From positions 31,286 to 95,285 of the forward strand of contig JADKHW010000006.1 of NCBI GenBank assembly GCA_016721565.1: a stretch of 64,000 nucleotides of DNA. Direction: 5' to 3'. The position numbers and the translations under genes are program-made. The notes under the pieces were generated by a model that was not told the origin of the DNA, did not search any database, and saw only the letters and a list, made by a program, of their open reading frames with translations. The DNA comes from a bacterium. GTDB taxonomy: Bacteria > Electryoneota > RPQS01. Shown here piece by piece: positions 9,311 to 60,887 of the stretch (position 1 is its first letter; every line of letters starts with the position of its first letter).

Positions 9311-10078
9311 ATGAAAGCCATCAATACGGCCGCAAAAAGTTGGGAAGCATACGTTCGCACTCAGAGTCCTGAGTTGCGCGAACAGCTCCTGATGGAGTAT
9401 TTGCCGATGGTGCGCAGATTGGCCACGCGTTTTCTGGGTACGCTGCCCAAAAGCGTTAGGTTGGATGATTTGGTATCTGCCGGAGTGATGGGCCTGCTGG
9501 CCTCGATTGACAATTTTGATCCGACGCTGGGAATCAAGTTTGAGACTTATGCCATGACGCGCATTCGCGGGGCAATGGTAGATAGCCTAAGAGAGTTGGA
9601 TTGGGTTCCGCGTTCAATTCGCCAAAAGGCCCGCAAGCTCGAGCAGGCGGTTGATCAAATCACCCGCAAAGTTGGTCGTTCGCCGGAAGACGCCGAACTG
9701 GCCGAACACTTGGGTTTGAATGTCGAAGAATATCGCGAACTGCTTGACGAAGTGAACGTTGCCGTGCTACTTTCGCTTGACGACACGCTCAAAGGCCAAG
9801 ACGGCAGTGAATCCTACCTTTCTGATTCCACTCCGGATCATACGACTAACGGACAAGACGAACAGCTTGAAGAGCAGGAGGTTCGCGACCTGTTGGTTGA
9901 CGGTCTGCGTGATATGCCCGAGCAAGAACGGCTCGTTGTCGCACTCTATTATTACGAAGAATTAACTCTTAAAGAAATTGGCGAGATTTTAGGACTTACT
10001 GAGTCACGCGTCTCGCAGATACATTCGAAGGCTTTGTTGGTATTGCGTGCGCGGGTCAGAGCGCGCCTGTTAAAGTAG
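9311..10078 (+). CDS. fliA: Flagellar sigma factor sigma-28 (FliA/WhiG)
   Basis: Sigma70 regions 2, 3 and 4 (YAMTRIRGAMVDSLRELDWVPRSIRQ...LTLKEIGEILGLTESRVSQIHSKALLVLR). Confidence 0.9.
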   Translation: MKAINTAAKSWEAYVRTQSPELREQLLMEYLPMVRRLATRFLGTLPKSVRLDDLVSAGVMGLLASIDNFDPTLGIKFETYAMTRIRGAMVDSLRELDWVPRSIRQKARKLEQAVDQITRKVGRSPEDAELAEHLGLNVEEYRELLDEVNVAVLLSLDDTLKGQDGSESYLSDSTPDHTTNGQDEQLEEQEVRDLLVDGLRDMPEQERLVVALYYYEELTLKEIGEILGLTESRVSQIHSKALLVLRARVRARLLK

Positions 10079-10108
10079 AATTTAATCACTGACAGACGGA
10101 GGAAAAGG

Positions 10109-10396
10109 ATGTTCCGACCGATCAACAGTGACGATCATACGCGTTTTCGGCCACCAGCTGAACACGTAAAGCAGACCGAAGCGATCTACCGCGGGCAAAA
10201 GCGCGATTTTTCCTACGAAGTCGAGCAAGTCAAAGAAGAATACAAGGAACACCGCGAGCAGCGCGATGAACCGTTCGGCGAGGATACGTTTGAATCGACC
10301 GCTGAACAGGAACAAAACCTGAAGGACGGCGCAGAAGAGCGCGCCAAGAAGGATCGCACACCGCCCGAATCCGGCCATGTTGACGTTCAAATCTAA
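10109..10396 (+). CDS. Hypothetical small acidic protein
   Basis: 95-aa ORF preceded by a strong RBS (GGAGGAAAAGG). Lys/Glu-rich, no known motif. Confidence 0.4.
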   Translation: MFRPINSDDHTRFRPPAEHVKQTEAIYRGQKRDFSYEVEQVKEEYKEHREQRDEPFGEDTFESTAEQEQNLKDGAEERAKKDRTPPESGHVDVQI

Positions 10397-11660
10397 TTTC
10401 AAATTGTGCTTGCTGATGTTGGCCGTTGGAGTTACTTCGGCTAATGCGGCGTCGCTCCTGTCCGTGCGATTTGGATCGCATCAAGGGTTTGACCGTATGG
10501 TTTGTGAATTGTCAAATGCCACCAAGTATGAAGTGAAACAGGCCGAGAATGGCGTCGTTGAACTTCATCTCGACAACGTTGCTGTGAGTGAAAAATTCTT
10601 TCTGCCCAAACTGCCTCCGCAGATCAAACTGCTGACCAGTGTTGAAGCGTTTCTCGAAGGTGATCACAGCATCGTCATAGAAATTCGCGGAACCGAAGCA
10701 CTGTTTGCCAAGACAACTGAGCTGAAAGGTGCCTCGTGGCGCCTCGCGCTTGATTTGTCCAAACAAAGTGAACAGCCTACCGAGCCTGCGCACGTTGAAC
10801 CGACGACGGCGAAACCTGAAACAACTTCGACGACGAAGCCGCAATTGAAGCATCGCCCCGCGAAGGACGAGCCTGCTCCTTACGTGCCGGGGGACAAACC
10901 GATTGAAACGATTCTTGCCGATAAGCAAGAATCTAAGGAAGAGCCGAAGCTTCTGCACGAAGAGAAGCCTGCCGATGAGCCTGCTGCCCCGAAACACAAG
11001 AAGCCTGCAAAAACGGTGGCAGGGCCACTGCTTACTGCCGATTCGCTGAAAGCGCTTGAGGTACTGGCCGAGTTCTATGATGTGATGGGCGATCAAGATG
11101 CCGCGCGCGAGTATGCTCGTCTCTATCTTGATAAAGTTGACAGCGGCGGATCATTCCCGAAGAAGGAAGCCGAGCAAACGGCGACATGGCCGATTTGGAT
11201 TTTGGTAGCAATCGCGTTTGCCGCAGGTATTGCAGGTGGTATTATTGGGAATCGTTTGCGCATGCCTAAAGGATCCCCGAGCATGCCGAAGTTTAGGTTG
11301 TCGTCGTTAAAGCTTCCCAAGTTTGGAAAGCGTAAAGATAAGGCAGAAGAGCTTTCCGAAGACCTCAACAAACTGGATCGCGCTGTCGCTTCTGAAAAGC
11401 ACAAGACTAATTTGAAACCTCAGCCGAAACAGGCCGCATTCAAAGCTGAAGTCCCTGCCGAAATTGTGAAAGATGCAGAAGAAGATTTCCCGGAAGACAC
11501 AAAAGAAAATCTTGAAACGGATATGAAAGAGTCTCTGATGGACCGCCGCGTGAAGCGCGTTATGGAACTCAACAGTCAAAACCGTTCACTTGCTGATATC
11601 GCCAAAGAGCTTGACATGGGCCAAGATGAAGTTAAGCTAATCATTGATCTGAATTCGTAA
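10377..11660 (+). CDS. Exported/membrane protein with AMIN-like N-terminal domain, Pro/Lys-rich linker and one TM helix
   Basis: Signal peptide, AMIN-like segment (LLSVRFGSHQGFDRMVCELSNATKYEVKQAENGVVELHLDNV), low-complexity KP-rich region, TM helix WPIWILVAIAFAAGIAGGIIG. Confidence 0.5.
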   Translation: MLTFKSNFKLCLLMLAVGVTSANAASLLSVRFGSHQGFDRMVCELSNATKYEVKQAENGVVELHLDNVAVSEKFFLPKLPPQIKLLTSVEAFLEGDHSIVIEIRGTEALFAKTTELKGASWRLALDLSKQSEQPTEPAHVEPTTAKPETTSTTKPQLKHRPAKDEPAPYVPGDKPIETILADKQESKEEPKLLHEEKPADEPAAPKHKKPAKTVAGPLLTADSLKALEVLAEFYDVMGDQDAAREYARLYLDKVDSGGSFPKKEAEQTATWPIWILVAIAFAAGIAGGIIGNRLRMPKGSPSMPKFRLSSLKLPKFGKRKDKAEELSEDLNKLDRAVASEKHKTNLKPQPKQAAFKAEVPAEIVKDAEEDFPEDTKENLETDMKESLMDRRVKRVMELNSQNRSLADIAKELDMGQDEVKLIIDLNS

Positions 11661-50012: not shown

Positions 50013-50326
50013 GCGCTGACGCGGCCTCAACGATTGTTTGGGGTCGCGTTTTTTTGTGGGGATTTTGGAGAGGCGAAGAGGGGTTGTAAGGGGTTGTTTC
50101 TGTGTAAAACGCTAATAATTGTCGGAACAGGAGTTGAGGATAAACAAGAGGTTAACTTTCGGGGGTGCACCTTTTTTCACGAAGTGTTATCTCGTTGATT
50201 TTGTTCATACCCTAATATACGATAATTTGAACGGATGGTCAAGTGATATTTTTGTTTTATTGAATTTAGTAAACTCTTGAGATGACTTGAGTTGTGTGAA
50301 AAATGAGGGTTGGGGAGGCATTTCTC

Positions 50327-50372
50327 GGATTTCGGCGGGGAACCGCTTCGCTAAATCCCCGCTCGGCGGAAA
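50327..50372. repeat. Hairpin-containing repeat element, copy A (GCGGGGA-N-TCCCCGC core)
   Basis: TTTCGGCGGGGAACCGCTTCGCTAAATCCCCGCTCGGCGG. Copy B at 52288-52342 carries a 13-nt hairpin insertion. Confidence 0.7.
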
Positions 50373-50479
50373 TGAGGCAAGGCCAAGGTCGATTTGTTAC
50401 CACCCCTTTATCCCCCCAGAGGACTGGGGGGAAATCAGAAAGCACTTGCGGAAGTGGTGGGGTGGGTGTAGATTGGGGT

Positions 50480-52282
50480 ATGAAGTGCGATTTTCTTCAG
50501 ACGCGAATTCTATCTGTATTCAATCTCTTGAAGCGGGTGGGGTTCGCGGTTTTGTTGTTGGGGGGAGCGGCGCAGTCCCAGCCACAGATTGACTGGAGGG
50601 AAGCTCGCATGATTGATGCTGACGTGTATTGGCACTTTCACAATATTGCAGTTTCCGGTGATACATTATTATTTGTTAAGTTCAATGAAGCTGGGCGGCC
50701 CGTTACCTGTTTTAGCTACGACAATGGATTAACTCATGGTGACTGGATCGAACATGGTGTAGATGAGGACAGAGCCTATAATACAGTTATAAGCACATCG
50801 GCGAATTGGTCCTATGTCTTCTGGGAAGACGATTTTCCATCAACGATGAGAGCAGAGGCAAGTTCAAATGCTGGATCGACGTGGCAGCCGCAAATTGAGC
50901 ATACAGGCGCGTGGCCACTAGCTGCATCAACTTCAGCCAGCACAACCGTCTTAGTGTACTCTGCGAGTTCGTCAGGTGCCGCTGTGGTAAAGGCACGTTG
51001 GGCGATTGACGGAACAAACTGGGGAACATCCCAAACGGTCGATACATTCAGGACTGAAATGGATGGCAATGATGTTACGCTGACGGCTACCCATACGTTG
51101 ATATCAGCTATTGAAGTGAATACAAACATGTATGACGACCGGATTCATGTTGCTCGTGGATCTAGGACTGGCATACCTTGGACACAATTTGAAGTGATGC
51201 CTAACCAGCCGTACGCTCAAGTCGTTCGAAGGGTTAGCCTAGCATCCGATACTACTTCGGAAAATGTTGTACTTGCGAGTGTTTGGGAAAGAGGTGTCTC
51301 AGGATTCGGAGATGCGGACGTATTTGTTACGCACAGCCCGGACGGGGGCGAGAGTTGGGAAACACCGCAACAGCTCACGGAAGGAGCTCCTATTTCTTGG
51401 GCTTCCTATGATGACATAAAAGCTTTCTGCAAAGGAAATCTGTATGGATTGGCTTGGAGCTATGATACTGCTGATGACATCGAGGATTGGAGTCTGAACT
51501 TCAGATATTCAGCTAATCACGGCAGATTTTGGTACCCTGCGCAGGAAATTAACTCGTTTGTGCGCGGAACCAGAATTACAACAGGACAATTTGTTGGGAG
51601 TGAAGTACGTGTCTATTGGGACGTGGCGCTTGACTCAAACTTCACAGAATTTTCTTTGCGAACAGTCTCGGGGCTTCTCACACCTGACACATTATCTCCA
51701 GAACTTGAGAACCTCTGGAATCTTCCTGAAATTGTATCCTCCGACACTACACTCGAGTTAAGTGTACTGGCAACGGACGACGACTCGCTGTGGAGCGTTG
51801 AGTTTGTGGCATATCTACAGGGCGCTCCAGAAGTGTCTTCAATAGTTGTGCTTGAGCACTTATCCTCTTCGCAGTTTGAAGGGTTTTGGACGGTTCCAGC
51901 TGACACGGCGATGTGGGTTTGCTTCTATCGTGCAGAAGATTTGTGGGAGAATGTGGCGACAACCTTGCCAGAGACGTTATTTGTTGGTACGATTCAAGCT
52001 GGTGGTAGTACTCCAACGATTGTGAATAAATTTTCACTTTCTGCATTTCCTAACCCATTCAACTCGACGCTTTCGATTTCGTTGGATGTGCCGTTGCATC
52101 GGGATGTGACGCTTGGGTTGTATGATTTGTTGGGGAGAGAGGTGGATGTGGTTTATCGGGGGAGACTCTCGTCTTCTACTGTTTCTTATGTTGCGCCTGC
52201 GGCGATGGCGAGTGGGGTTTATTTTTTGAGGGCGAGTGCGAATTCGCAATCTGTTTTGGGGAAAGTGGTTTTGTTGAAATAG
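50480..52282 (+). CDS. Secreted BNR/sialidase-like repeat protein with T9SS C-terminal sorting domain
   Basis: Signal peptide MKCDFLQTRILSVFNLLKRVGFAVLLLGGAAQSQ. BNR-like SxDxGxxW (HSPDGGESWETP, SNAGSTWQP). C-terminal Por_Secre_tail-like FPNPFNSTLSISL...GVYFLRA...KVVLLK. The true start is 50480, not 50303. Confidence 0.75.
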   Translation: MKCDFLQTRILSVFNLLKRVGFAVLLLGGAAQSQPQIDWREARMIDADVYWHFHNIAVSGDTLLFVKFNEAGRPVTCFSYDNGLTHGDWIEHGVDEDRAYNTVISTSANWSYVFWEDDFPSTMRAEASSNAGSTWQPQIEHTGAWPLAASTSASTTVLVYSASSSGAAVVKARWAIDGTNWGTSQTVDTFRTEMDGNDVTLTATHTLISAIEVNTNMYDDRIHVARGSRTGIPWTQFEVMPNQPYAQVVRRVSLASDTTSENVVLASVWERGVSGFGDADVFVTHSPDGGESWETPQQLTEGAPISWASYDDIKAFCKGNLYGLAWSYDTADDIEDWSLNFRYSANHGRFWYPAQEINSFVRGTRITTGQFVGSEVRVYWDVALDSNFTEFSLRTVSGLLTPDTLSPELENLWNLPEIVSSDTTLELSVLATDDDSLWSVEFVAYLQGAPEVSSIVVLEHLSSSQFEGFWTVPADTAMWVCFYRAEDLWENVATTLPETLFVGTIQAGGSTPTIVNKFSLSAFPNPFNSTLSISLDVPLHRDVTLGLYDLLGREVDVVYRGRLSSSTVSYVAPAAMASGVYFLRASANSQSVLGKVVLLK

Positions 52283-53984: not shown

Positions 53985-54067
53985 GGAGGACTAGTCTAAT
54001 TGGTAAGGCAACGGTCTTGAAAACCGTCGGGCGAAAGCCTTTGGGAGTTCGAGTCTCCCGTCCTCCG
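53985..54067 (+). tRNA. tRNA-Ser (anticodon UGA), class II with long variable arm
   Basis: Acceptor GGAGGAC/GTCCTCC. Anticodon stem ACGGT-CTTGAAA-ACCGT is near-identical to the E. coli tRNA-Ser(UGA) arm. Variable arm GGGCGAAAGCC. T-arm GGGAG-TTCGAGT-CTCCC. Confidence 0.8.
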
Positions 54068-54101
54068 CAAGTATTATAGAAAACAGCATTTTGGGGTTCC
54101 T

Positions 54102-54614
54102 ATGCGGAAGGTTGTGCTGTTTGCGGCCTCCAGTCTGGACGGCTTTATTGCCAGACCTGACGGAGCTATTGACTGGCTCTTTCAGGATGGTGACTACGGT
54201 TTTTCAGAGTTCATGGAGACTGTCGATTCTGTCGTGCTGGGCCGCAAGACCTACGAGGTCGCCAAAGCGCTGGGAGACGATTCCCTGACGGCTGGGGAGC
54301 ATTGGATTGTCAGCCGCAATCCGGACAAGCACGCCGGAGGCAAGGCGCGCTTCGGGACTTTGGATCAGGTTGGCGATTGGCTGAGATCATCGGTGTCCGA
54401 AAAAGCGGTTTGGCTGATCGGCGGAGGTGAATTGACTGCGGCATTTTTGGATCGCGGTTGGCTGAACGAAATTGTGCTGGCGATTCATCCGCGTTTGTTG
54501 GGCATGGGGATTGGCATCAGTCCGAATCTGCTGAACGACGCTGTGCTGACTTATCGCAAGCATAAGGTCTTTGACAATGGATTGATACAAGTTTGGTACG
54601 ATGTGGCTCGCTGA
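54102..54614 (+). CDS. Dihydrofolate reductase-family protein (RibD C-terminal domain type)
   Basis: MRKVVLFAASSLDGFIARPDGAIDWL...VVLGRKTYE is the typical RibD_C/YwjB-like pattern. 170 aa. Confidence 0.75.
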   Translation: MRKVVLFAASSLDGFIARPDGAIDWLFQDGDYGFSEFMETVDSVVLGRKTYEVAKALGDDSLTAGEHWIVSRNPDKHAGGKARFGTLDQVGDWLRSSVSEKAVWLIGGGELTAAFLDRGWLNEIVLAIHPRLLGMGIGISPNLLNDAVLTYRKHKVFDNGLIQVWYDVAR

Positions 54615-54632
54615 GGCCACCAAAGAATTTCA

Positions 54633-54722
<90 letters not shown>

Positions 54723-54844
54723 ATTGCGCACAAGTACTTGATTATAGTGCTTGTGCGTTTGATATTTTGGAGTGAAGTGCCAAGTATGTGCCAAGTGTTC
54801 TAAGTGGCCGGCACGCCCAAAATAGACCTAAAGGCCAAATCAAA

Positions 54845-55970
54845 ATGAAAAGACCAGACACGCCGAATGTGCGTTCCCGAAAGAATCCAAGCGGTGAACG
54901 CGTGTACTTCGTCGACTACTTCGACTTTGAAAAGAACAAGCGAGTACGCGAAGTCGTTGGTCCGCGAAAGGCTGAAGCAGATCGTCGGGCAGCCGAAATC
55001 TATCAGCAACGAAAGGATGAGTACTTAGGCGTTGCCGTGCCGACGGCCAATGACATTACCCTGGGCGAGCTTATCGACGCATTCTTCCGTAGCAAAGTAG
55101 GTCGCGTTGCGCCTTCAACAATCAAGCGGTATAGAATTCATGCAGCGCACTTAGTTGCCTTTGTCAACAAGAATTTCCCCAAAGTCAAGAACATTCGAGC
55201 GATTCGCAAGGTCTACATCGAGGAACTTTTTGAAGCTTTGCGACGGCAAGCAATGGAGCCCAAGACCCTAAACGCACAACTTCAATTTGTGAAGGCAATC
55301 TTCATCTTCGCCGAACACGAAGGGTATCTTACTGAAAGCCCTGCGAAACGAATCAAACCGTTTCGCGAGACCAAGCAATCCCAAGCAGTGCCATACTGGT
55401 CGAAAATCGAAGTTGTTTCGATTCTTGCGGAAGTGAAACAGGGTGGAGGACGCCTATGAATTCTTGTATCACACGGGGCTGCGTAAGGGCGAACTTTCCA
55501 ATCTCACTTGGGATGATGTTGACCTTGATCACGACCCTCCTTCAATTGCCATTCAAGCAAAAGATGATTGGACAACGAAAACCTTGAAGCGGCGAATCGT
55601 TCCGCTGAATACAAGAGCAGCGGAGATAATCAAACGTCAGGCTCGAAGCAAAAAACACAACTACGTTTTCAAAGCTCCAGAAGGTGGGCAAATCCACCCA
55701 GATAAGATTTATCGCGAACTGAAACGCGCACTGGCTGTCTTGAATCTCGAAGGTGATGTTCACCAGTGGCGACACACATTTGCATCCCATCTTGTGATGA
55801 GTGGAGTTGATATCGCTACGGTCTCCAAACTATTAGGGCATCATTCCATCGAAAAAAGCCATGAAATACCCCCTCTTGCTCCTGGACCACTTGGCGGCGG
55901 GTGTGAGATCACTTGGCGCAAAGGGAAAGAGTGGGGGACGACGCAAACTTTACATCATTTTATGCCTTGA
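54845..55970 (+). pseudogene. Tyrosine recombinase/phage integrase, disrupted by a frameshift near 55443-55459 and a probable second one in an A6 run near 55853
   Basis: N-terminal SAM-like/core-binding domain ORF (54845..55459) and catalytic-domain ORF (55443..55970) are in different frames. The catalytic ORF has R..HxxR (HQWRHTFASHL) and LLGHHSIEK, but the terminal Tyr motif is out of frame. Deleting one A restores ...MKY...LDHL. Confidence 0.7.
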
Positions 55971-56050: not shown

Positions 56051-56263
56051 ATGAAAGTCAAAGTCCTCTGCCTTGGCCGCTCGGCCAAGGAAATCAACGT
56101 CAGTGACGGTACGACCGTCGAACAAGCCATCGCGGAATGCGGATTCCCGAAGGATTCGAGCTATACCCGGCACCTGAACGGCAGCCCGTGTTTTGACACG
56201 GATATTCTGGTCGACAACGCCGTGTTGACGTTGGTGCCACAAGTGAAAGGCGGGGGTTGTTAG
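56051..56263 (+). CDS. Ubiquitin-like beta-grasp protein (ThiS/MoaD-like) ending in GGG-C
   Basis: 70 aa. MKVKVL...HLNGSPCFDTDILVDNAVLTLVPQVKGGGC. RBS AAAGGAG 6 nt upstream. The C-terminal Gly-Gly is followed by a single Cys, as in precursor Ubls trimmed by JAB peptidases. Confidence 0.75.
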   Translation: MKVKVLCLGRSAKEINVSDGTTVEQAIAECGFPKDSSYTRHLNGSPCFDTDILVDNAVLTLVPQVKGGGC

Positions 56264-56346: not shown

Positions 56347-56415
56347 ATGATTGAACAACAAATCCGCACGTTGTGCCGATTCTATGAACAGAAATGGCAT
56401 GTGCCGATTACATAA
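56347..56415 (+). CDS. Leader mini-ORF (22 aa, MIEQQIRTLCRFYEQKWHVPIT) with strong RBS, overlapping the E2 start via TAATG
   Basis: GGAGGA sits 6 nt upstream of the ATG. Its stop TAA overlaps ATG 56415 of the downstream gene. No RBS precedes any candidate start of the E2 gene itself. Confidence 0.4.
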   Translation: MIEQQIRTLCRFYEQKWHVPIT

Positions 56416-57455
56416 TGACACAAGACATGGACCTGCTTTGTTGGCACGAAGTTGGGATTGCTGTCCGTACTCATACGGATCCTGATTCAGCATTCTCAAA
56501 GAATGTCTCAGGTGATCCGCTTGTGATGGAATCAGTGCTTGTCGGCAAGGTTTCACCGACTTGGATTGTGCTGTACGGTGCGCCTCGTGTCGATGTGACT
56601 TCGAACATCCTTGACGCACATCTTCCACGTATGTGCCGGACGTTTAGAGAACGTCAAAGGGAGACATTGATCGACACGATGCAAACTGTGGCTGCCGAAC
56701 GGAAGCATGAACTTGCAATCTCGCTTAGAGATGACCGATACGAACTCGAACGACTTTGCATGCAGGTGATGACTCTATCACGCAAAGTCGAAGGAGACCG
56801 TGAGATACTGAACATGTTCAGCAGGGCACCGGAATTCATCAAAGCGAAGGCGACGCGGACATTCGTGGAAATGATGCGACTGGTTCCCAGTTGTTATTCG
56901 CATATCAACGTCGTCGAGAAGTCTGTGCTTGCCGAGACGTATCCGATCACACTGGAACACGATGGTGGAAGTTACAACTTCGAACCTTATGTGGTTGAAG
57001 TGGACTTGGACAAGGGCAAAGTGTTGATCAGCGGCGGAACCGAATGCAACGGTTACATACATCCGCATGTCACGGATGATCCTAACAACATTTGTTGGGG
57101 TAACATCGGACATCTTGTATCTCGACTGACTGGTGAACTTGACTTGCATGGACTGCTCCAACTTGTTCATCAGTTTCTGCATAGCTACAATAGTTCAGAT
57201 CCGTTTCAAAAGATCGAGAAGTGGGATCCCGATTGGGTTGAAGACGAAGATGACAATGATTCATACTGTTCGTGGTGTGATGATTACGGCCACGATGTTT
57301 CAGAATGTGACTATTGCAGTTGGTGTGAACACTGTGATCAGTACGACGAACACAGTGAAGAGAACTGCCCAAACCGTCCCAAAGATGAAGATGAAGACGA
57401 AGGAGAGGAGGAAGCCGATGCAGAACTTGCAGAGGACACCGCGACAGCCGGTTGA
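56415..57455 (+). CDS. E2-like (UBC-fold) ubiquitin-conjugating enzyme homolog with N-terminal extension and C-terminal CxxC-rich acidic tail (alternative start 56394)
   Basis: UBC-like core: beta-strands (YPITLEHDGGSYNFEPYVVEVDLDKGKVLI), HPN-like motif with catalytic Cys (YIHPHVTDDPNNICWGNIGHL), following helix (LHGLLQLVHQFLHSY). Tail: CSWCDDYGHDVSECDYCSWCEHC...C then DEDEDEGEEE. Confidence 0.65.
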   Translation: MTQDMDLLCWHEVGIAVRTHTDPDSAFSKNVSGDPLVMESVLVGKVSPTWIVLYGAPRVDVTSNILDAHLPRMCRTFRERQRETLIDTMQTVAAERKHELAISLRDDRYELERLCMQVMTLSRKVEGDREILNMFSRAPEFIKAKATRTFVEMMRLVPSCYSHINVVEKSVLAETYPITLEHDGGSYNFEPYVVEVDLDKGKVLISGGTECNGYIHPHVTDDPNNICWGNIGHLVSRLTGELDLHGLLQLVHQFLHSYNSSDPFQKIEKWDPDWVEDEDDNDSYCSWCDDYGHDVSECDYCSWCEHCDQYDEHSEENCPNRPKDEDEDEGEEEADAELAEDTATAG

Positions 57456-58131
57456 TGCTGGTGTGAAGATTCAAGTCGAGGCCGAGGCTATGCAGAAGCT
57501 ATGGCTGTGGACTGATTTTGCGAGAGGTGAGGTTAGTTGCCTCGGACTCGTGGATGAAGTTGTTAGCACGGACACTGGTCGCACGACGGCGTTGATTGTC
57601 ACCGACTTCTTTCTGGTAAAGCAGGATTGCACTTCCGACGAAACCGATATGGATGTTGCGGATGTTGCCAGATTGATATCCGAACTGGAAGCGAAGGGAA
57701 TTGACTCGCGTAAGCTTCGTTGCTGGGCACACTCGCATGCGACGATGAGCGTATTCTGGTCAGGTCAGGATGAATCATGTATCAGTGGACTTGCCAATGC
57801 TGAGTGGCTACTCAGCTTGGTCGTGAATAAACGTCGTGACACACAGATGCGCCTTGACCAGTTCCATCCCAGTCATATGTACATTCCTGATGTCGTGTGG
57901 GAAGTGAAATATCCACTGGTGGACGGCCTCGCAGAAGCATGCTTTGATGAGTTCAAGGCCAAAGTCCACGAAGGTACTTTCATGCCAAGAACACGCGATG
58001 TTGTCAGTGGAAGAGATCGTCTTTGGAATGAGCTGGACCATGCGAGGGAACGAGGTGCTTTGACAATGGATGACCTTGATGACGAATTGAATTGGCTGGG
58101 GATTGAACGTGACGACTTTGAACCATATTAG
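57418..58131 (+). CDS. JAB/MPN (JAMM) metalloprotease, predicted Ubl-processing/deconjugating peptidase
   Basis: JAMM motif HSHATMSVFWSGQD (HxHx7Sx2D) with upstream Glu (GEVSCLGLV). RBS GAAGGAGAGGAGG precedes ATG 57418. Overlaps the E2 3' end by 38 nt. Confidence 0.8.
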   Translation: MQNLQRTPRQPVDAGVKIQVEAEAMQKLWLWTDFARGEVSCLGLVDEVVSTDTGRTTALIVTDFFLVKQDCTSDETDMDVADVARLISELEAKGIDSRKLRCWAHSHATMSVFWSGQDESCISGLANAEWLLSLVVNKRRDTQMRLDQFHPSHMYIPDVVWEVKYPLVDGLAEACFDEFKAKVHEGTFMPRTRDVVSGRDRLWNELDHARERGALTMDDLDDELNWLGIERDDFEPY

Positions 58132-58139
58132 GAGACCAC

Positions 58140-58788
58140 ATGAACGACATGCGATTCTTACGTCAAAAAGATGTTGTCGATACCGAGAAGCTTGCGAACC
58201 TGCAAGTAACGTTGATCGGTCTGGGGAGCATTGGGAGCGTCACTGGTCTGTATCTTGCCAAGATGGGCGTGGTCAAATTGACCACCTTCGATTCAGACAT
58301 CGTCGATGTCCACAATGTCAGCAATCAGGCTTATGGGATGTCTGATGTTGGATTGCTGAAGACTGATGCATTTGCAACGCTTGTCGAGAACCAAACTGGA
58401 GTGCTTCCAAACACCGTAGGTCTACAGTATGATGGTCGACAGCTTTCCGGTGTCGTGATTTCTGCGTTGATTCCATGAGTCTCGTAAAACGATCTGGAAA
58501 TCTATACGAGAACAGCCAAGCGTCAGGTTGTATGTTGACGCACGCATGGGTCTTGAAACACTGGTTGTCCACGCAGTGAGACCACAACTCCTAATCGACA
58601 GACTGAAGTATTCACAATCAATTGTACCTGACGACCAAGCTCTGCAAGAACCATGCACGGCACGAACGATTTGTTACACGCCTTTGATGGCCGCGGTTGT
58701 TTGCAATCTTGTGAAACGGTTTATCAATCAGGAAGTACTGCCAAGCCAAGTCACTCTTGATCTTGCAACATTCACTTTGATGGCCTGA
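58140..58788 (+). CDS. E1-like (ThiF/MoeB-type) adenylyltransferase, interrupted by a +1 frameshift around 58470-58478
   Basis: Frame 0 (58140..58478): Rossmann VTLIGLGSIGSVTGLYLAKMGVVKLTTFDSDIVDVHNVSNQ (GxGxxG plus D...N.Q). Frame +1 opens at 58471 and continues to 58788 with ThiF-like C-terminal segments (YVDARMG..., EPCTARTICYTPLMAAVVCNLVKRFI). Confidence 0.65.
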
Positions 58789-58901: not shown

Positions 58902-59306
58902 ATGGAATTCACGCCCACCGAAGAGGTGTCTGCCAAACTGACGCCTGCTGAGATAATTGTGCAAGACCAGCCAGGCCGGTTGCTTCTTCCTGCACATGAG
59001 CTTGTTGTGCCGGCAGCGCCCGTCACCTTTTGTCACGCAGCAAGGGATAACATCATGCCCACTTTTCAATTCACGACACACGAACGTTGGGATCATGTTG
59101 TAGAGTATTCTGTTAATGCGCCAACTCTCGAAACCGCTGTTCGAATGGCAGTGACGGGAAAAGTGACATATACCAGTGCAGAATATCAAGAGGGTAATCC
59201 AGTTCAAGAAGTTTTGTCCATTCTTGAGGTGATTAATCACGACAACAAAGAGGTAATCAACAATGAAAAGAAGCTGAAGAAACTGCTTGACAACTCCGTT
59301 GGCTGA
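58902..59306 (+). CDS. Hypothetical 134-aa protein (last gene of the Ubl operon block)
   Basis: ORF followed by a strong terminator. No recognisable motif. Confidence 0.4.
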   Translation: MEFTPTEEVSAKLTPAEIIVQDQPGRLLLPAHELVVPAAPVTFCHAARDNIMPTFQFTTHERWDHVVEYSVNAPTLETAVRMAVTGKVTYTSAEYQEGNPVQEVLSILEVINHDNKEVINNEKKLKKLLDNSVG

Positions 59307-59338: not shown

Positions 59339-59624
59339 TAGCCTTTTCTGGACATATTTGTCGACTTTATAAGCCTCTATTGGTGGTTGCTATTGATAAA
59401 CATGGAAGAACGATGTAAATTAAGTATGGGCAAGTTAACCGACCTCAACTGATTGAATTACTGGCATTTGTTCATGACGCGACCCGAACTGACTGTAGAA
59501 GAATTTACGCACTACACAAAATGAAATCCTAACCATGAATCTCTTGACTAAGTCAAGTCGAAATCCTTTCTTGTTCTCAGGTCTTGTGAATCTGACGCGC
59601 ACACTTAGCTTGGAGACCACGAAT

Positions 59625-60887
59625 ATGACGCGAATTCTATCTGTATTCAATCTTTTGAAGCGGGTGGGGTTCGCGGTTTTGGTACTGGGGGTGACAAATG
59701 GGCACTCGCAATCATGGGAGCTCATGGATGAATTACCTGAACGTTCGGAAGTTGAGTGCATTACAATTGATGCCCAGACGGGAAGCATATTTGCAGGCAC
59801 GGCTCGAATTTTTGGTTTTCCGGAATGTGGAGGAATTTACAAGTATAATCAAATAGATGGAATTTGGGAATATAAGCAGTTTAGAGAAACAACAATAAGT
59901 AATATCCTCAGACTCCAGAATGACCATACATATATTTATGCATGCACAGAAGAGGGATTAGCACGGTCCAATGACGACGGTGAATCATGGCAGCTTTTTG
60001 ACGATCATCCGGGAAATTCTTCAAACATAGCTATGTCTCCCAACGATAGTACCCTATGGGCAGTTGGTCTTTCTCCTGTGGAGTCGACACGGCTCTATTT
60101 AGTTAGAGACGGCATTGAGTGGGAGCTTATTGATTCATCGCTTCCATGGACTGGTGGTCTCGGTTTTTCAAGTACGGATTCGACAATTCTCTACATGGCC
60201 ACAAACAACTTTTGCTATCGCCTCAATCTACAAACGAGAGTAAGGGAGCAGATTTTCCCATGGAATTTTTATGGCTACAGAACATTATACTTGTCACACG
60301 AAGAGCCTAATGTCTTTTTCTTAGAGCTTCATTCGATCTTCCGTTATGACGAAGAGACTTCCTTGTATGATTCGGTCTTCTTTCCAGCGGGCAGTGGACG
60401 TGCCAACAGATGGGCGATCTCTTCATCGGAAGAAATAACCGTCGCAGCCGATAGCATGCTACTTGAAATCAACAGCGATTTGACTTCTGTTGACATTCTT
60501 ACGCCGCCTGAACTCGGATTAGGCGGAAGTGCAATTGGGATCGATACTGTCACAGGCATACGGTATGTAGCAGTTGAAAACAGAATTTATGTCGAATTGC
60601 CAACGGCTGTCGACAATATAGGTCGGCCTGAAGAATTCCCTCTTTCTGTCTTCCCCAATCCCTTCAATTCGAGTATATCTATTTCCCTCCGCATTGCTCC
60701 ATATCAAAGAACGACTTTGTCATTATATGACATACTAGGCCGTGAAGTGGACGTCTTTCATCTCGGACGAATTAATCGCGAGACAATTCATTACACAGCT
60801 CCTTCATCATTAGCAAATGGCATCTATTTCATTCGAGTAGAGATTGGGGAGTGGCACGCGCTACAAAAGGTCATCTTGTTGAAGTGA
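59625..60887 (+). CDS. Secreted beta-propeller-like protein with T9SS C-terminal sorting domain (paralog family of 50480..52282)
   Basis: Signal peptide MTRILSVFNLLKRVGFAVLVLGV is nearly identical to that of the first T9SS protein. C-terminal FPNPFNSSISISL...GIYFIRV...KVILLK. The true start is 59625, not 59535. Confidence 0.75.
   Translation: MTRILSVFNLLKRVGFAVLVLGVTNGHSQSWELMDELPERSEVECITIDAQTGSIFAGTARIFGFPECGGIYKYNQIDGIWEYKQFRETTISNILRLQNDHTYIYACTEEGLARSNDDGESWQLFDDHPGNSSNIAMSPNDSTLWAVGLSPVESTRLYLVRDGIEWELIDSSLPWTGGLGFSSTDSTILYMATNNFCYRLNLQTRVREQIFPWNFYGYRTLYLSHEEPNVFFLELHSIFRYDEETSLYDSVFFPAGSGRANRWAISSSEEITVAADSMLLEINSDLTSVDILTPPELGLGGSAIGIDTVTGIRYVAVENRIYVELPTAVDNIGRPEEFPLSVFPNPFNSSISISLRIAPYQRTTLSLYDILGREVDVFHLGRINRETIHYTAPSSLANGIYFIRVEIGEWHALQKVILLK

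What the first reader, a model, noticed from the sequence alone, without database searches (positions are those of the whole stretch)
56415..57455. Unusual E2 architecture: about 170-aa N-terminal extension plus C-terminal CxxC-rich zinc-ribbon/RING-like and poly-acidic tail
The recognisable UBC-like core occupies only about residues 175-270. It is preceded by a helical region of unknown function. It is followed by C-x2-C-x9-C-x2-C-x2-C-x2-C-x10-C with interspersed His (CSWCDDYGHDVSECDYCSWCEHC...C), then DEDEDEGEEEADAE. The Cys/His spacing partly resembles a cross-brace RING or treble-clef zinc binder. If so, E2 and an E3-like or substrate-recruiting module would be fused in one protein, which would be unusual for bacterial systems. 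The acidic tail could mimic nucleic acid or bind basic phage proteins.
Basis: inference. Interest (0 to 1): 0.6.

Follow-up and report, generated by a model that had tools for sequence, protein, structure and literature searches.

The report
E2 enzyme with zinc-knuckle tail
This gene encodes a ubiquitin-conjugating-type (E2) enzyme whose very acidic tail carries two conserved zinc-knuckle motifs; it belongs to a large, unannotated family of ubiquitin-like tagging cassettes on mobile islands and phages, and the copy in this window is broken by frameshifts.

Summary
ORF 56394-57455 has a UBC (E2) core at about residues 153-277, with HPH223-225 and an invariant Cys234. About 150 residues precede the core: a small alpha/beta domain and a roughly 95-residue helical hairpin.

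The RING/E3 reading is not supported. Ligand conservation, conserved H-x4-C spacing, the AlphaFold secondary structure and profile matches (Air2, CLIP-170) point to two tandem CCHC zinc knuckles: C292/C295/H300/C305 and C311/C314/H320/C325. They lie in a tail with net charge about -30.

The gene is the E2 of a conserved cassette: Ubl, E2, JAB peptidase and a minimal ThiF-type E1. This is the Bil gene order, but none of the cassette's E2, Ubl or JAB matched any curated family at threshold. Close relatives sit in integrase islands next to tRNA or tmRNA genes, often several per genome. Distant relatives (about 1,800 clusters) include phage-encoded ones. They keep the cassette but have very different C-terminal tails.

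I infer an E3-independent E2 whose tail recruits a partner or target. The window copy has a 1-nt deletion at codon 23, and its E1 and integrase are also frameshifted, so it is either decayed or mis-assembled.

The parts
54632..54721 (+). tRNA-Ser(GCT), the probable integration site of the island
   Evidence: ARAGORN. In 11 of 13 close-family loci a tRNA or tmRNA gene lies 0.3-6 kb upstream of the cassette.
54788..55970 (+). Tyrosine integrase, disrupted. It is split into ORFs 54788-55459 and 55443-55970, and the region around the catalytic Tyr is garbled.
   Evidence: Pfam Phage_integrase 4e-26. tblastn with the intact 370-aa L021 integrase hits two frames.
56051..56263 (+). Ubiquitin-like protein (70 aa, single beta-grasp, ThiS-like). 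It ends ...VKGGGC.
   Evidence: Weak ThiS hits. Conserved directly upstream of the E2 in every close-family locus (L001-L004, L011-L024). The C-terminus there is always VKGG plus 1-2 variable residues.
56347..56412 (+). Native first 22 codons of the E2 gene (MIEQQIRTLCRFYEQKWHVPIT). They are out of frame with the rest because of a 1-nt deletion at about 56412.
   Evidence: tblastn and DNA alignment against L001. One homolog has a near-identical N-terminus...HVPITVMTQDMDL....
56394..57455 (+). The E2-like ORF as it stands in the window (353 aa). This is the finding.
56412..56576 (+). N-terminal alpha/beta domain (ORF residues 7-61; the native domain also includes the 22 frameshifted residues). 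Function unknown.
   Evidence: AF2 strands and helices, pLDDT 79-92. No PDB match for the profile. The N-terminal motif is conserved across the superfamily.
56589..56876 (+). Long helical hairpin: helix 66-143 and helix 146-161. The second helix corresponds to E2 helix alpha-1. Many charged residues are conserved (R103, E106, R112, E117, R120, R130, K131, D135).
   Evidence: AF2; conservation; only coiled-coil-type noise in Pfam and PDB.
56850..57224 (+). UBC (E2) catalytic core, ORF residues 153-277
57060..57068 (+). HPH motif (H223-P224-H225), the counterpart of the E2 HPN motif
   Evidence: Read directly from the sequence. Conserved 64/66/67 of 67. P224 and H225 are invariant in the superfamily sample.
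57093..57095 (+). Predicted catalytic Cys234 (NICWGN)
   Evidence: 67 of 67 conserved. Aligned to UBE2D2 Cys85.
57225..57266 (+). Acidic linker (DPDWVEDEDDNDSY)
   Evidence: Sequence. Acidic in all homologs.
57267..57308 (+). Zinc knuckle 1: C292-x2-C295-x4-H300-x4-C305 (CSWCDDYGHDVSEC), the canonical CCHC spacing with Gly-His
   Evidence: Ligands conserved 66-67 of 67. AF2 gives a hairpin at 291-292/297-298 and a 3-10 turn at 302-304. CLIP1_ZNF and zf-CCHC sub-threshold hits; Air2 and CLIP-170 matches.
57315..57317 (+). C308, an extra conserved Cys between the knuckles. It is not assigned to a site in the preferred model.
   Evidence: 65 of 67 conserved; Ser or Ala in two homologs whose other ligands are intact.
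57324..57368 (+). Zinc knuckle 2: C311-x2-C314-x5-H320-x4-C325(-Pro), the same spacing as Air2 knuckle 2
   Evidence: AF2 gives a hairpin at 309-311/316-318 and a turn at 322-324. H-x4-C is kept in 60 of 64 tails even when the loop lengthens. The Air2 alignment covers both units.
57369..57452 (+). Poly-acidic C-terminal tail, predicted disordered. The last 35 nt of this part lie in the 38-nt E2/JAB overlap (57418-57455, which also takes in the stop codon 57453-57455).
   Evidence: pLDDT below 50. Variable in sequence but always acidic. The same overlap occurs in L001.
57418..58131 (+). JAB/JAMM metallopeptidase (237 aa), intact, with the motifs E...G and HSHx7Sx2D (WAHSHATMSVFWSGQD)
   Evidence: Motif read from the translation. 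Orthologs in distant loci carry weak or faint Prok-JAB hits. Conserved position in the cassette. The window protein itself has no Pfam or PDB sequence hit.
58140..58788 (+). Minimal ThiF-type E1 (intact homologs are 217-224 aa). Here it is disrupted by two 1-nt deletions at about 58466 and about 58479.
   Evidence: Pfam ThiF 1.8e-13 on the N-terminal fragment. tblastn hits two frames, and the DNA alignment shows the deletions. The L001 homolog matches UBA5, MoeB, Cap2 and ThiF in the PDB.
58902..59306 (+). Small ORF downstream of the E1, possibly an accessory gene
   Evidence: phmmer 3e-19 to the ORF right after the E1 in L003/L004. Not detected in the other loci. No family hit.

Best explanation
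**What it is.** The ORF encodes the E2 of a four-gene ubiquitin-like conjugation cassette: Ubl, E2, JAB and E1. The cassette is carried as cargo of a small integrase island inserted at tRNA-Ser.

**Inferred pathway.**
1. The JAB peptidase trims the 1-2 residues after the Ubl's VKGG.
2. The minimal ThiF-type E1, probably a homodimer like UBA5 or MoeB, adenylates the exposed Gly.
3. The Ubl is passed to Cys234 of the E2.
4. The E2 transfers it to a target amine without a separate E3, as in Bil systems.

**E2 architecture (shown by prediction and homology).**
- A family-specific alpha/beta N-domain.
- A roughly 95-residue helical hairpin rich in conserved charged residues. I infer that it serves oligomerisation or docking to the domain-poor E1.
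- A canonical-type UBC core (HPH...Cys) that lacks the last E2 helices.
- A C-terminal module of two tandem CCHC zinc knuckles, one Zn each: C292/C295/H300/C305 and C311/C314/H320/C325. It is embedded in a strongly acidic sequence that is disordered at its end.

**Role of the tail (inferred).** The knuckle and acidic tail is not a RING E3. I take it to be a protein-protein interaction module that selects or senses a partner, most likely a basic target or trigger protein of a phage or mobile element. The reasons are its charge and the fact that this is the part of the protein that is swapped between subfamilies.

**This copy.** The copy in the window is frameshifted in the E2, the E1 and the integrase. 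In this assembly it is either a decaying remnant or a locally mis-assembled repeat.
For: **E2 identity.**
- hhalign against UBE2D2: 90.8% probability, E 1.2e-6, with HPH on HPN and C234 on C85.
- C234 and H225 are conserved 67 of 67.
- UQ_con is the commonest, though sub-threshold, Pfam match in the superfamily.

**Cassette.**
- Ubl, E2, JAB and ThiF in the same order in all 14 distinct close-family loci (12 complete, 2 cut by a contig end). The genes also co-occur in distant members (same order in L005, L007 and L009; ThiF first in L025) whatever the tail type.
- The Ubl ends VKGG plus 1-2 residues in every close-family locus.
- The JAMM motif is intact.
- The E1 is closest to UBA5, MoeB, Cap2 and ThiF.
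- The E2 and JAB genes overlap by 38 nt.

**Knuckles.**
- Ligand conservation.
- H-x4-C is retained in both units when loop lengths change, and C308 is dispensable in two homologs.
- The same secondary-structure pattern (hairpin, short helix, Cys) occurs twice in two independent AF2 runs.
- Air2 tandem knuckles E 0.0049, and CLIP-170 knuckle E 0.023-0.036.
- CLIP1_ZNF hits 26 of 40 tails; RING hits 1 of 40.

**Variable-module argument.**
- Of 116 superfamily representatives, 67 have other Cys-rich acidic tails, 18 acidic only, 13 none and 3 basic, around a conserved core.
- E1 and JAB sizes do not change with tail type.

**Mobile and defence context.**
- tRNA-Ser and an integrase in the window.
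- tRNA or tmRNA adjacency in 11 of 13 loci, and several copies per MAG.
- A CBASS system next to the cassette in L003.
- Phage-borne relatives.
Against: - No biochemical evidence of any kind. Zn binding, thioester formation and E3-independence are all inferred.
- The window's own tail does not reach any Pfam threshold (best CLIP1_ZNF 8 bits against a cutoff of 25). The Air2 and CLIP-170 matches are marginal (E 0.005-0.04).
- C308 is conserved in 65 of 67 sequences but has no role in the two-knuckle model.
- I could not inspect model coordinates, so the ligand geometry was not verified.
- Unlike classic CCHC knuckles, the module is acidic. The family's usual nucleic-acid-binding function does not transfer.
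- Nothing identifies the target. Phage-encoded relatives mean the cassette need not be an anti-phage defence.
- The window copy is frameshifted in three genes, so it may do nothing in this organism.
Confidence: 0.55

Rival explanations
1. The tail is a miniature cross-brace (RING-like, binuclear) domain. C292/C295 with C311/C314 bind one Zn, and C305/C308 with H320/C325 bind the other. It acts as a built-in E3 that activates the E2~Ubl thioester in cis.
For: - The seven Cys fit the first seven RING positions (C-x2-C-x9-C-x2-C-x2-C-x2-C-x10-C).
- C308 is conserved in 65 of 67 sequences and would be a ligand.
- One distant superfamily member (P0131) has a different tail that matches zf-RING_4 over the full model, sub-threshold (E 0.0013, 18.9 bits against 27).
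- E2/E3 hybrids such as UBE2O and BIRC6 exist in eukaryotes (established knowledge).
Against: - The invariant G299-H300 has no role in this arrangement.
- The last ligand pair would be spaced x4, not x2.
- Only 5 residues separate C314 from H320, which leaves no room for the RING central helix. AF2 predicts two separate hairpin units.
- C308 is Ser or Ala in two homologs with otherwise intact tails.
- RING profiles match 1 of 40 tails at E 0.55, and the BRE1 RING scores 0.47, against 26 of 40 for a knuckle model.
- No RING appears in the Foldseek search.
Confidence: 0.1
2. The zinc-knuckle and acidic tail works inside the system rather than on targets. It could dock the E2 to the minimal E1 or the JAB, bind the Ubl non-covalently as many small zinc fingers bind ubiquitin, or fold back on the E2 as an autoinhibitory element released by a trigger.
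For: - The E1 has no UFD or other E2-docking domain (217-224 aa).
- The CLIP-170 knuckle with its acidic end, the closest profile match, is a protein-binding and autoinhibitory module (plus established knowledge of CLIP-170/CAP-Gly complexes 2hqh and 3e2u).
- Air2 knuckles also bind a protein partner, Trf4 (3nyb).
- The tail is strongly conserved within the close family, alongside conserved partner proteins.
Against: - Subfamilies with no tail, an acidic-only tail or a basic tail keep the same Ubl, JAB and E1 partners of the same sizes. The tail is therefore not needed for the core relay.
- A hypervariable tail around a conserved core looks more like adaptation to something outside the cassette.
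Confidence: 0.2
3. The Cys cluster binds an Fe-S cluster or acts as a redox or disulfide switch. C308-x2-C311-x2-C314...C325-Pro resembles a ferredoxin-type CxxCxxC...CP motif. The tail would then make the E2 responsive to oxidative or metal stress.
For: - The CxxCxxC...CP arrangement is present, and all four Cys are conserved in at least 65 of 67 sequences.
- This model gives C308 a role.
Against: - It leaves the conserved His, with its fixed H-x4-C spacing, unexplained.
- The fourth Cys lies 10 residues away rather than 3.
- No Fe-S family appears among the profile matches.
Confidence: 0.07
4. (Independent of the rivals above.) In this genome the locus is a dead remnant: a decayed integrative island whose E2, E1 and integrase are pseudogenes. 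Nothing here functions.
For: - At least four frame-disrupting indels lie within about 4.6 kb. One is in the E2 at about 56412. Two are in the E1 at about 58466 and 58479. The integrase has one at about 55440, and its catalytic-Tyr region is garbled.
- The other roughly 55 kb of the window consists of long uninterrupted ORFs. These include flagellar genes with natural overlaps.
- All 14 homologous genome loci have an intact E2, and an intact E1 wherever the contig reaches it.
Against: - The cassette family is multi-copy within genomes. The nearest relatives come from long-read MAGs (tig-named contig L012; the truncated P0016 on a 3.4-Mb contig). Uncorrected indel errors in a repeated region are therefore equally plausible.
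- Other database entries of this family also show frame errors (P0057, P0108, P0121).
- The Ubl and JAB genes are intact, and the E2 has no in-frame stop after codon 23.
Confidence: 0.45

Closest known systems
BilABCD (bacterial ISG15-like) anti-phage systems, Types I and II (Hor et al. 2023 bioRxiv 10.1101/2023.09.04.556158; Chambers et al. 2023 bioRxiv 10.1101/2023.09.26.559546)
   Same: - Four genes in the same order: Ubl, E2, JAB DUB and E1.
- The Ubl carries extra residues after its C-terminal Gly, which the JAB would remove.
- There is no E3 gene.
- The E2 lacks the C-terminal helices of eukaryotic E2s.
- The cassettes are found in mobile or defence contexts.
   Different: - The E1 here is a single ThiF domain of about 220 aa, not the multidomain IAD+AAD+CYS E1.
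- The E2 is about 370 aa, with an N-terminal domain, a long helical hairpin and a zinc-knuckle acidic tail. E. aridi BilB is about 200 aa.
- No profile similarity to E. aridi BilB.
- No PADLOC, Pfam Prok-E2 or NCBIfam model matches the E2, and no model at all matches the window JAB.
- The active-site motif is the canonical type, HP(H) upstream of the Cys, rather than the downstream His of BilB/CEHH.
Canonical eukaryotic UBC E2 enzymes (e.g. UBE2D2, UBE2F, Ubc13)
   Same: - Significant profile alignment across helix alpha-1, the beta-meander, HPN/HPH, the catalytic Cys and the crossover helix.
   Different: - HPH instead of HPN.
- The last two helices are absent.
- There is a roughly 150-residue N-terminal extension (about 170 in the intact protein) and a zinc-knuckle tail.
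- It is encoded in a prokaryotic operon with a minimal E1.
CCHC zinc knuckles: Air2 tandem knuckles (PDB 2lli), CLIP-170 C-terminal knuckle (2hqh, 3e2u), retroviral nucleocapsid (1a1t)
   Same: - Unit 1 has the exact C-x2-C-x4-H-x4-C spacing with Gly-His.
- Unit 2 has the C-x2-C-x5-H-x4-C-P spacing of Air2 knuckle 2.
- The tandem arrangement aligns with Air2.
- Like CLIP-170, the knuckle lies next to an acidic C-terminal end, an arrangement known to bind proteins.
   Different: - The module is strongly acidic rather than basic, so nucleic-acid binding is unlikely.
- Scores are below Pfam thresholds.
- There is an extra conserved Cys (C308) between the units.
- It is fused to an E2, an arrangement I found nowhere in the papers searched.
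E2s with built-in extra modules or E2/E3 hybrids (UBE2O, BIRC6, UBE2K with a UBA domain); archaeal and bacterial operons with a separate small RING (Caldiarchaeum, PMC5654768; prokaryotic RINGs of Burroughs et al. 2011)
   Same: The general idea: an E2 core joined to, or encoded next to, a small Zn-binding or substrate-binding module that provides specificity.
   Different: - Here the module is a CCHC knuckle pair, not a RING.
- It is fused C-terminally to the E2.
- No homology to those modules was detected.
Other bacterial E2 contexts: CBASS Cap2 (E2-E1 fusion), Bub operons (BubB), operon types 6a-6e of Iyer et al. 2006 (PMC1779556)
   Same: - A UBC-fold protein genetically linked to an E1-like and a JAB-like protein (Ubl too, except in CBASS, where the conjugated moiety is the CD-NTase and there is no Ubl gene).
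- Sporadic, mobile distribution.
   Different: - Bub uses oxyester chemistry, without a catalytic Cys, and a DUF6527 protease (PMC11601596).
- Type 6d E2s lack the upstream His and have a separate alpha-helical protein.
- None of those descriptions mentions a zinc-knuckle tail.

Membership tests
UBC / E2 superfamily (catalytic) | UBC fold: helix alpha-1, four-stranded antiparallel meander, active-site loop, crossover helix | tested here: met
   [not shown]
UBC / E2 superfamily (catalytic) | HPN-type motif 7-10 residues upstream of an invariant catalytic Cys | tested here: met
   H223-P224-H225, then C234 (HPH variant). Conserved 64/66/67 and 67 of 67. Aligned to HPN75-77 and C85 of UBE2D2.
UBC / E2 superfamily (catalytic) | Match to the curated family model (Pfam UQ_con) above threshold | tested here: not met
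   No hit for the window protein. Only sub-threshold hits in 4 of 43 superfamily members, best E 0.0054. This is a divergent family without a model of its own.
UBC / E2 superfamily (catalytic) | E1-dependent thioester with a Ubl on the catalytic Cys | not testable with these tools
   Needs biochemistry.
RING / cross-brace binuclear treble clef (E3-like) | Eight ligands with spacing C-x2-C-x9-39-C-x1-3-H/C-x2-3-C-x2-C-x4-48-C-x2-C | tested here: not met
   Seven positions fit. There is no eighth ligand at x2, because C325 is followed by PNRPK. Using H320/C325 as the last pair requires x4 spacing.
RING / cross-brace binuclear treble clef (E3-like) | Profile or fold similarity to RING, U-box or related domains | tested here: not met
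   zf-C3HC4_3 hits 1 of 40 tails at E 0.55. BRE1 RING E 0.47. No RING in the Foldseek PDB search of the tail model.
RING / cross-brace binuclear treble clef (E3-like) | Interleaved (cross-brace) metal ligation | not testable with these tools
Indirect evidence argues against it: C308 is dispensable, H300 is invariant, and AF2 predicts two separate hairpin units.
CCHC zinc knuckle (Gag-knuckle type; Pfam zf-CCHC, CLIP1_ZNF) | C-x2-C-x4-H-x4-C ligand spacing, usually with Gly-His | tested here: met
   Unit 1 fits exactly (C292, C295, G299-H300, C305). Unit 2 is C-x2-C-x5-H-x4-C, as in Air2 knuckle 2. H-x4-C is kept in all unit 1 copies and in 60 of 64 unit 2 copies.
CCHC zinc knuckle (Gag-knuckle type; Pfam zf-CCHC, CLIP1_ZNF) | Match to curated knuckle models above threshold | tested here: inconclusive
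   For the window tail, CLIP1_ZNF scores 8 bits against a cutoff of 25, and zf-CCHC gives nothing. Among 40 homolog tails, CLIP1_ZNF hits 26 (best E 7.2e-5) and zf-CCHC hits 2 (best 0.038). PDB profile search: Air2 E 0.0049, CLIP-170 E 0.023.
CCHC zinc knuckle (Gag-knuckle type; Pfam zf-CCHC, CLIP1_ZNF) | Short beta-hairpin carrying the CxxC, followed by a loop with His and a 3-10 turn before the last Cys | tested here: met
   This pattern is predicted twice: 291-292/297-298 with 302-304, and 309-311/316-318 with 322-324. It appears in both the full-length and the tail-only AF2 models.
CCHC zinc knuckle (Gag-knuckle type; Pfam zf-CCHC, CLIP1_ZNF) | Zn(II) binding, one ion per knuckle | not testable with these tools
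   Needs metal analysis.
CCHC zinc knuckle (Gag-knuckle type; Pfam zf-CCHC, CLIP1_ZNF) | Basic surface and single-stranded nucleic-acid binding (typical of the family, not universal) | tested here: not met
   The tail's net charge is -30 in the window and averages -24 over 66 homologs. It resembles the protein-binding CLIP-170 type instead.
BilABCD (Type I/II) systems | Operon Ubl, E2, JAB, E1 in this order, with no E3 | tested here: met
BilABCD (Type I/II) systems | The Ubl precursor has residues after the conjugating Gly that the JAB removes | tested here: met
   VKGG plus 1-2 variable residues (GC, A, I, C, GW, DR, LV, GQ) in all close-family loci. The cleavage itself was not tested.
BilABCD (Type I/II) systems | Multidomain E1 (inactive and active adenylation domains plus a CYS domain) | tested here: not met
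   E1 homologs are 217-224 aa with a single ThiF domain. Their best PDB relatives are UBA5, MoeB, Cap2 and ThiF.
BilABCD (Type I/II) systems | Sequence homology of the E2 to BilB, or detection by defence-system models | tested here: not met
   hhalign of the family profile against E. aridi BilB: probability 0.1%. No PADLOC hit for the E2, Ubl or JAB. Type I BilB was not tested because I had no sequence.
BilABCD (Type I/II) systems | Anti-phage activity through Ubl conjugation to a phage protein | not testable with these tools
   Context only: an integrase/tRNA island, CBASS next to the cassette in L003, and phage-encoded relatives.

The most novel reading that the evidence does not exclude
The cassette represents an undescribed and very large superfamily of minimal ubiquitin-like conjugation systems, with about 1,800 clusters at 50% identity. 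The systems are carried by tRNA-targeting islands and by phages. Their E2 is the closest prokaryotic relative of the canonical eukaryotic UBC (HPN-type) enzymes. The E2 carries its own interchangeable specificity module as a hypervariable C-terminal tail: CCHC knuckles here, other Cys-rich modules elsewhere, possibly RING-like in some members, or purely acidic or basic tails. Target choice would then be built into the E2 instead of an E3. That would be a possible evolutionary precursor of the E2-to-E3 division of labour, and a new class of phage-host conflict system.
Probability: 0.3. Interest if true: 0.75.

Novelty: new variant of a known kind. Interest (0 to 1): 0.55.

Why it matters
Bacterial ubiquitin-like conjugation systems (CBASS Cap2/Cap3, Bil, Bub) have only recently been shown to be real enzymatic cascades used in phage conflicts. 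How they choose targets without an E3 is still open.

This family adds a fourth architecture, with three notable features:
- The smallest E1 seen in such an operon.
- An E2 with a canonical-type active site.
- A modular, rapidly exchanged C-terminal tail. In this subfamily the tail is a pair of acidic zinc knuckles.

If the tail is the specificity element, the family offers a natural panel of E2s with swappable receptors. That panel could be used to test how E3-independent targeting works and how E2/E3 specialisation may have begun.

The family is also invisible to current annotation. It has no Pfam, NCBIfam, PADLOC or PHROG model, and all members are named 'hypothetical'. A family model would annotate thousands of genes in metagenomes and phage genomes.

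Tried and rejected
**Searches that found nothing**
- Pfam, PADLOC, NCBIfam and PHROGs on the E2: no hit.
- phmmer of the E2 and of the JAB against PDB sequences: nothing.
- HMM profile of the superfamily against PDB sequences: only coiled-coil noise, plus UBE2L3 at E 0.3-0.8.
- Profile of the N-terminal domain against PDB: nothing. That domain remains unidentified.
- tblastn of three family members against GenBank phages, and of the window protein against plasmids: no match.
- Search for an att direct repeat of the tRNA-Ser 3' end downstream of the island: none of 11 nt or more. The far island boundary is undefined.

**Searches that did not help**
- A second homologous-protein search, with the diverse alignment, mostly returned the close family again.
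- hhalign against UBE2W (sequence from memory, chosen because it also has HPH): only 51.7% probability. No special relationship.
- Foldseek of the tail-only model against PDB: a single, non-significant hit to HIV-1 nucleocapsid. It is suggestive only.

- The afdb50 fold library was not available.

**Interpretations rejected**
- Zinc ribbon or ClpX-type treble clef. The ClpX ZBD matched at E 0.036-0.087, but only over the first CxxC, and its inter-pair spacing of 18 does not fit.
- Membership of the PRTRC system. Only the E1 hits it, below cutoff.
- Programmed frameshifting into the JAB frame. That frame is open across the tail. This is expected from GA-rich acidic and TG-rich Cys codons, and its length varies among loci.

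Full report

Yes. The window has an ORF at 56394..57455 (+) of 353 aa. I use ORF numbering throughout.

The Cys pattern is exactly as reported: C292-x2-C295-x9-C305-x2-C308-x2-C311-x2-C314-x10-C325, with H300, H313 and H320 interspersed. The sequence DEDEDEGEEEADAE follows. The last 77 residues have net charge -30.

This is not a chance cluster. A database search found 76 homologs, all unnamed. In an alignment of 67 of them (36-84% identity to the window protein):
- C292, H300 and C305 are invariant.
- C295, C311, C314 and C325 are each present in 66 sequences.
- C308 is present in 65 of 67.
- Every tail matched by the spacing pattern (64 of 66) has a His between C314 and C325.

There is one correction to the coordinates. 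Intact homologs begin MIEQQIRTL...HVPI. The window encodes this at 56347-56412 in a different frame. A single missing base at about 56412 separates it from the rest of the gene. The native protein would be about 369 aa. As assembled, the window gene is frameshifted at codon 23.

**2. The core is a genuine UBC-type E2.**

No curated library recognises the protein: Pfam, PADLOC, NCBIfam, PHROGs and PDB sequences all give nothing. The structural and profile evidence is nevertheless clear.
- An AlphaFold2 model built on the homolog alignment is confident (mean pLDDT 84).
- A profile of 43 diverse family members aligns to human UBE2D2 with 90.8% probability (E 1.2e-6). ORF residues 153-272 align to UBE2D2 residues 6-120. 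H223-P224-H225 falls on the HPN motif and C234 on the catalytic Cys85.
- The same profile shows no similarity to the type II BilB of Ensifer aridi.
- The only recurrent Pfam match among family members is UQ_con, sub-threshold. None of the Prok-E2 families matches.

The core spans about residues 153-277. It ends after the crossover helix and the SYNxxDP motif, so the last two helices of eukaryotic E2s are missing.

**3. What surrounds the core in the protein.**

On the N-terminal side the model shows a small alpha/beta domain (residues 1-61, plus the 22 lost residues). A single helix of about 78 residues (66-143) then folds back into helix 146-161, which corresponds to E2 helix alpha-1. The long helix carries many nearly invariant charged residues: R103, E106, R112, E117, R120, R130, K131 and D135. 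It behaves as coiled-coil-like sequence in library searches. The N-domain has no detectable relative.

On the C-terminal side an acidic linker (278-291) leads into the Cys/His module (292-325). A poly-acidic end follows and is predicted disordered (pLDDT below 50).

**4. The Cys/His module: two CCHC zinc knuckles, not a RING.**

Four lines of evidence agree.

(a) Spacing. Unit 1 is C292-x2-C295-x4-H300-x4-C305, with the typical Gly-His. This is the canonical retroviral-type knuckle. Unit 2 is C311-x2-C314-x5-H320-x4-C325-Pro.

(b) Constraint.
- Some homologs carry an insertion between the CxxC and the His: 4 to 5 residues in unit 1, and 5 to 7 in unit 2. The H-x4-C distance is preserved in all unit 1 copies and in 60 of 64 unit 2 copies. 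This is expected if the His and the last Cys bind the same metal.
- C308 is the residue a RING reading needs as ligand 4. It is Ser or Ala in two homologs with otherwise intact tails. The invariant G299-H300 has no role in a RING reading.

(c) Predicted structure. Both the full-length and the tail-only AlphaFold runs give the same motif twice. A two-stranded hairpin carries the CxxC at its turn, and a one-turn helix precedes the last Cys: 291-292/297-298 with 302-304, and 309-311/316-318 with 322-324. pLDDT is 75-83.

(d) Profile matches.
- A profile of 40 tails finds yeast Air2 (PDB 2lli) at E 0.0049. The alignment spans both units, and Air2 knuckle 2 has the same x5 spacing. It also finds the CLIP-170 knuckle at E 0.023-0.036.
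- The Pfam CLIP1_ZNF model hits 26 of 40 tails (best E 7.2e-5). A RING model hits 1 of 40 at E 0.55, and the BRE1 RING scores 0.47.
- The only Foldseek PDB match of the tail model is HIV-1 nucleocapsid, the archetypal two-knuckle protein. At E 1.6 this is suggestive only.

Caveats:
- The window's own tail is below every Pfam threshold.
- I could not inspect coordinates to check metal geometry.
- The conserved C308 is unexplained.

Two alternatives therefore remain open at low probability: a cross-brace arrangement and a CxxCxxC...CP Fe-S site.

Unlike classical knuckles, this module is strongly acidic. The mean net charge of the tail over 66 homologs is -24. Nucleic-acid binding is therefore unlikely. 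The closest functional analogue is the CLIP-170 knuckle with its acidic end, which binds proteins (established knowledge of PDB 2hqh and 3e2u).

**5. The gene's context.**

The E2 is the second gene of a four-gene cassette.
- Upstream is a 70-aa ThiS-like beta-grasp protein ending VKGGGC (56051-56263).
- Downstream, overlapping the E2 by 38 nt, is a 237-aa JAB/JAMM peptidase with an intact HSHx7Sx2D motif (57418-58131).
- Last is a ThiF-type E1 (58140-58788; Pfam ThiF 1.8e-13).

The same four genes in the same order occur in all 14 distinct close-family loci retrieved (12 complete, 2 cut by a contig end). The Ubl always ends VKGG plus 1-2 variable residues, as expected for a precursor trimmed by the JAB. 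The E1 homologs are only 217-224 aa. Their nearest solved relatives are UBA5, MoeB, Cap2 and ThiF.

The gene order is that of BilABCD. The differences are a minimal E1, an E2 unrelated in sequence to type II BilB, and no match of any defence-system model to the E2, Ubl or JAB.

In the window the cassette lies directly after tRNA-Ser(GCT) and a tyrosine integrase. Among close relatives:
- 11 of 13 loci have a tRNA or tmRNA gene 0.3-6 kb upstream (Glu, Ser, Met, Val/Asp, tmRNA).
- 7 of the 14 distinct loci have an integrase within about 6 kb.
- Single MAGs carry two to four diverged copies at different sites.
- In one genome the cassette sits next to a CBASS system.

The cassette is therefore cargo of small integrative islands.

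**6. The wider family.**

An exhaustive profile search finds about 1,800 cluster representatives at E up to 1e-3, and 356 at E up to 1e-10. They share three elements:
- the helical hairpin;
- the UBC core, with the consensus Y-x-HPHV-x3-G-x2-C-[WL]-G-N ... FL-x-SYN-x3-PY-x2-IE-x-W;
- in many members, the N-terminal motif.

Their C-terminal tails differ completely. Of 116 representatives with a recognisable core:
- 67 have other Cys-rich tails (median 120 aa, 16 Cys, net charge -21);
- 18 have acidic tails without a Cys cluster;
- 13 have no tail;
- 3 have basic tails;
- 15 fall in none of these classes.

One tail (P0131) matches a RING model over its full length but below threshold.

Whatever the tail, the Ubl, JAB and ThiF partners are present and similar in size.

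Several members are phage-encoded:
- An IMG/VR contig carries DNA polymerase and UvsX genes. There the cassette (Ubl ending QGGC, E2 of 662 aa) sits just upstream of a 1,526-aa fibre-like protein.
- Another contig is phage-like.
- A 130-kb replication-module contig carries a member.
- BFVD phage proteins match the model.

None occurs in GenBank phages, and the window protein has no match in the plasmid records. All sampled members are 'hypothetical'.

**7. How it most likely works.**

Shown by homology and prediction:
- a UBC-type E2 with a catalytic Cys;
- genetically and probably translationally coupled to a Ubl precursor, a JAMM peptidase and a minimal adenylating E1;
- with a conserved Cys/His module of knuckle type.

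Inferred pathway:
1. The JAB exposes the Ubl's GG.
2. The E1 adenylates the Ubl, and probably thioesterifies it through the Cys in its crossover loop.
3. The Ubl is transferred to C234 of the E2.
4. The E2 conjugates it to targets without an E3.

Inferred roles of the extra parts:
- The E1 has no E2-docking domain, so the conserved charged hairpin or the N-domain of the E2 probably supplies docking or oligomerisation.
- The tail is dispensable for the core relay across the superfamily, is exchanged between subfamilies, and here is an ordered Zn module in a polyanionic context. It is therefore most likely the element that recognises something outside the cassette: a basic target or a trigger protein of a phage or mobile element.

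Alternatives are intra-system docking, Ubl binding or autoinhibition; a built-in RING-like E3; and an Fe-S or redox sensor.

**8. The state of this particular copy.**

Besides the E2 frameshift, the damage is as follows:
- The E1 has two single-base deletions 13 nt apart (about 58466 and 58479).
- The integrase is split at about 55440 and has lost the region around its catalytic Tyr.

The remaining roughly 55 kb of the window is made of long uninterrupted ORFs, including flagellar genes with natural overlaps. All retrieved homologous loci have an intact E2, and an intact E1 wherever the contig reaches it.

Either the island is decaying in this genome, or this multi-copy repeat was poorly polished in a long-read assembly. 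The nearest relatives come from such assemblies, and other database entries of the family also show frame errors. I cannot decide between the two and rate them about even.

**9. Comparison, novelty and verdict.**

The system works like a Bil-type Ubl-conjugation operon and shares its gene order. It fails two membership features: the multidomain E1 and homology to BilB. I therefore treat it as a distinct family rather than a Bil member.

The E2 is a member of the UBC superfamily by fold and active-site motif. The tail is best filed as CCHC-knuckle-like. Spacing and predicted topology are met, curated thresholds are not, and the charge is atypical.

I found no paper describing this architecture. 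Earlier surveys (Iyer et al. 2006 and the Bil and Bub papers) describe other operon types.

Verdict:
- The RING/E3 interpretation is replaced by tandem acidic zinc knuckles.
- The finding is a new variant of a known kind, of moderate to good interest (0.55) at the family level.
- It is tempered by the lack of any functional evidence and by the broken state of the copy in this window.

Noticed in passing
window 53985-54068, 54102-54614, 54632-54721, 54788-55970: Two tRNA-Ser genes (TGA and GCT anticodons) flank a 170-aa RibD_C-like reductase ORF. The second tRNA is followed at once by a tyrosine integrase. This is the classical layout of an integrative island, but I found no att direct repeat of 11 nt or more downstream.
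   Followed up: partly
window about 55440, about 56412, about 58466, about 58479: Frame-disrupting single-base deletions are concentrated in the 4.6-kb island (integrase, E2, E1). The other roughly 55 kb of the window has only long intact ORFs. This points to a decaying island or to local assembly error in a multi-copy repeat.
   Followed up: partly
L013, L014, L017, L018 (one MAG, CAZHAK01); L015, L016 (JACJWA01); L012-L023: The cassette occurs two to four times per genome at 70-78% identity. The copies sit next to different tRNA or tmRNA genes (Glu, Ser, Met, Val/Asp, tmRNA). This suggests a family of site-specific islands that all carry this cargo.
   Followed up: partly
L003/L004 3827-5992 versus 7689-10484: In one genome the cassette lies about 1.7 kb from a CBASS operon (SMODS/DncV-like cyclase plus patatin). 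A DDE transposase and an AEP-type primase are nearby. This is a defence-island-like setting.
   Followed up: no
L010 6662-15614 (IMG/VR UViG_3300035204_001594): A phage contig with DNA polymerase and a UvsX-like recombinase carries a distant version of the cassette. Its Ubl ends QGGC, its E2 is 662 aa, its JAB is 400 aa and its E1 is 255 aa. The cassette sits immediately upstream of a 1,526-aa repeat-rich fibre-like protein. This recalls the link between Bil and phage tail fibres, and the lambda tail-assembly Ubl/JAB pair.
   Followed up: partly
P0131 residues 339-385 (distant superfamily member): A different Cys-rich tail, made of many CxxC pairs, matches Pfam zf-RING_4 over the whole model but below threshold (E 0.0013, 18.9 bits against 27). 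Some members of the superfamily may therefore really be E2-RING fusions.
   Followed up: partly
window 57133-58131 (JAB frame) over 57133-57455: The JAB reading frame stays open for about 95 codons upstream of its ATG, across the whole E2 tail. It encodes a Lys-rich peptide there. Three database proteins (P0057, P0108, P0121) are called in that frame. This is probably a by-product of GA-rich and TG-rich codons plus frame errors, since the upstream open length varies among loci.
   Followed up: partly
window 58902-59306; L003 10346-10738: A small ORF right after the E1 is shared with one distant locus (phmmer 3e-19) but not detected elsewhere. It may be an accessory gene.
   Followed up: no
window 50303-52282 and 59535-60887: Two large secreted-protein genes share an almost identical signal-peptide region (ILSVFNLLKRVGFAVL) and a C-terminal FPNPFNS...LYD(L/I)LGREVDV sorting-type tail. 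One lies 2.4 kb before the tRNA pair and the other directly after the island.
   Followed up: no
L007 1698-4922, 9899-12882: A phage-like contig carries a tail-less E2 relative. It also encodes a MoxR-like AAA protein, DUF3150, a DUF2201 protein (phrog 'HNH endonuclease'), a kinase-like protein and an adenylosuccinate-synthetase homolog. The last might be PurZ-like, but I did not examine it.
   Followed up: no
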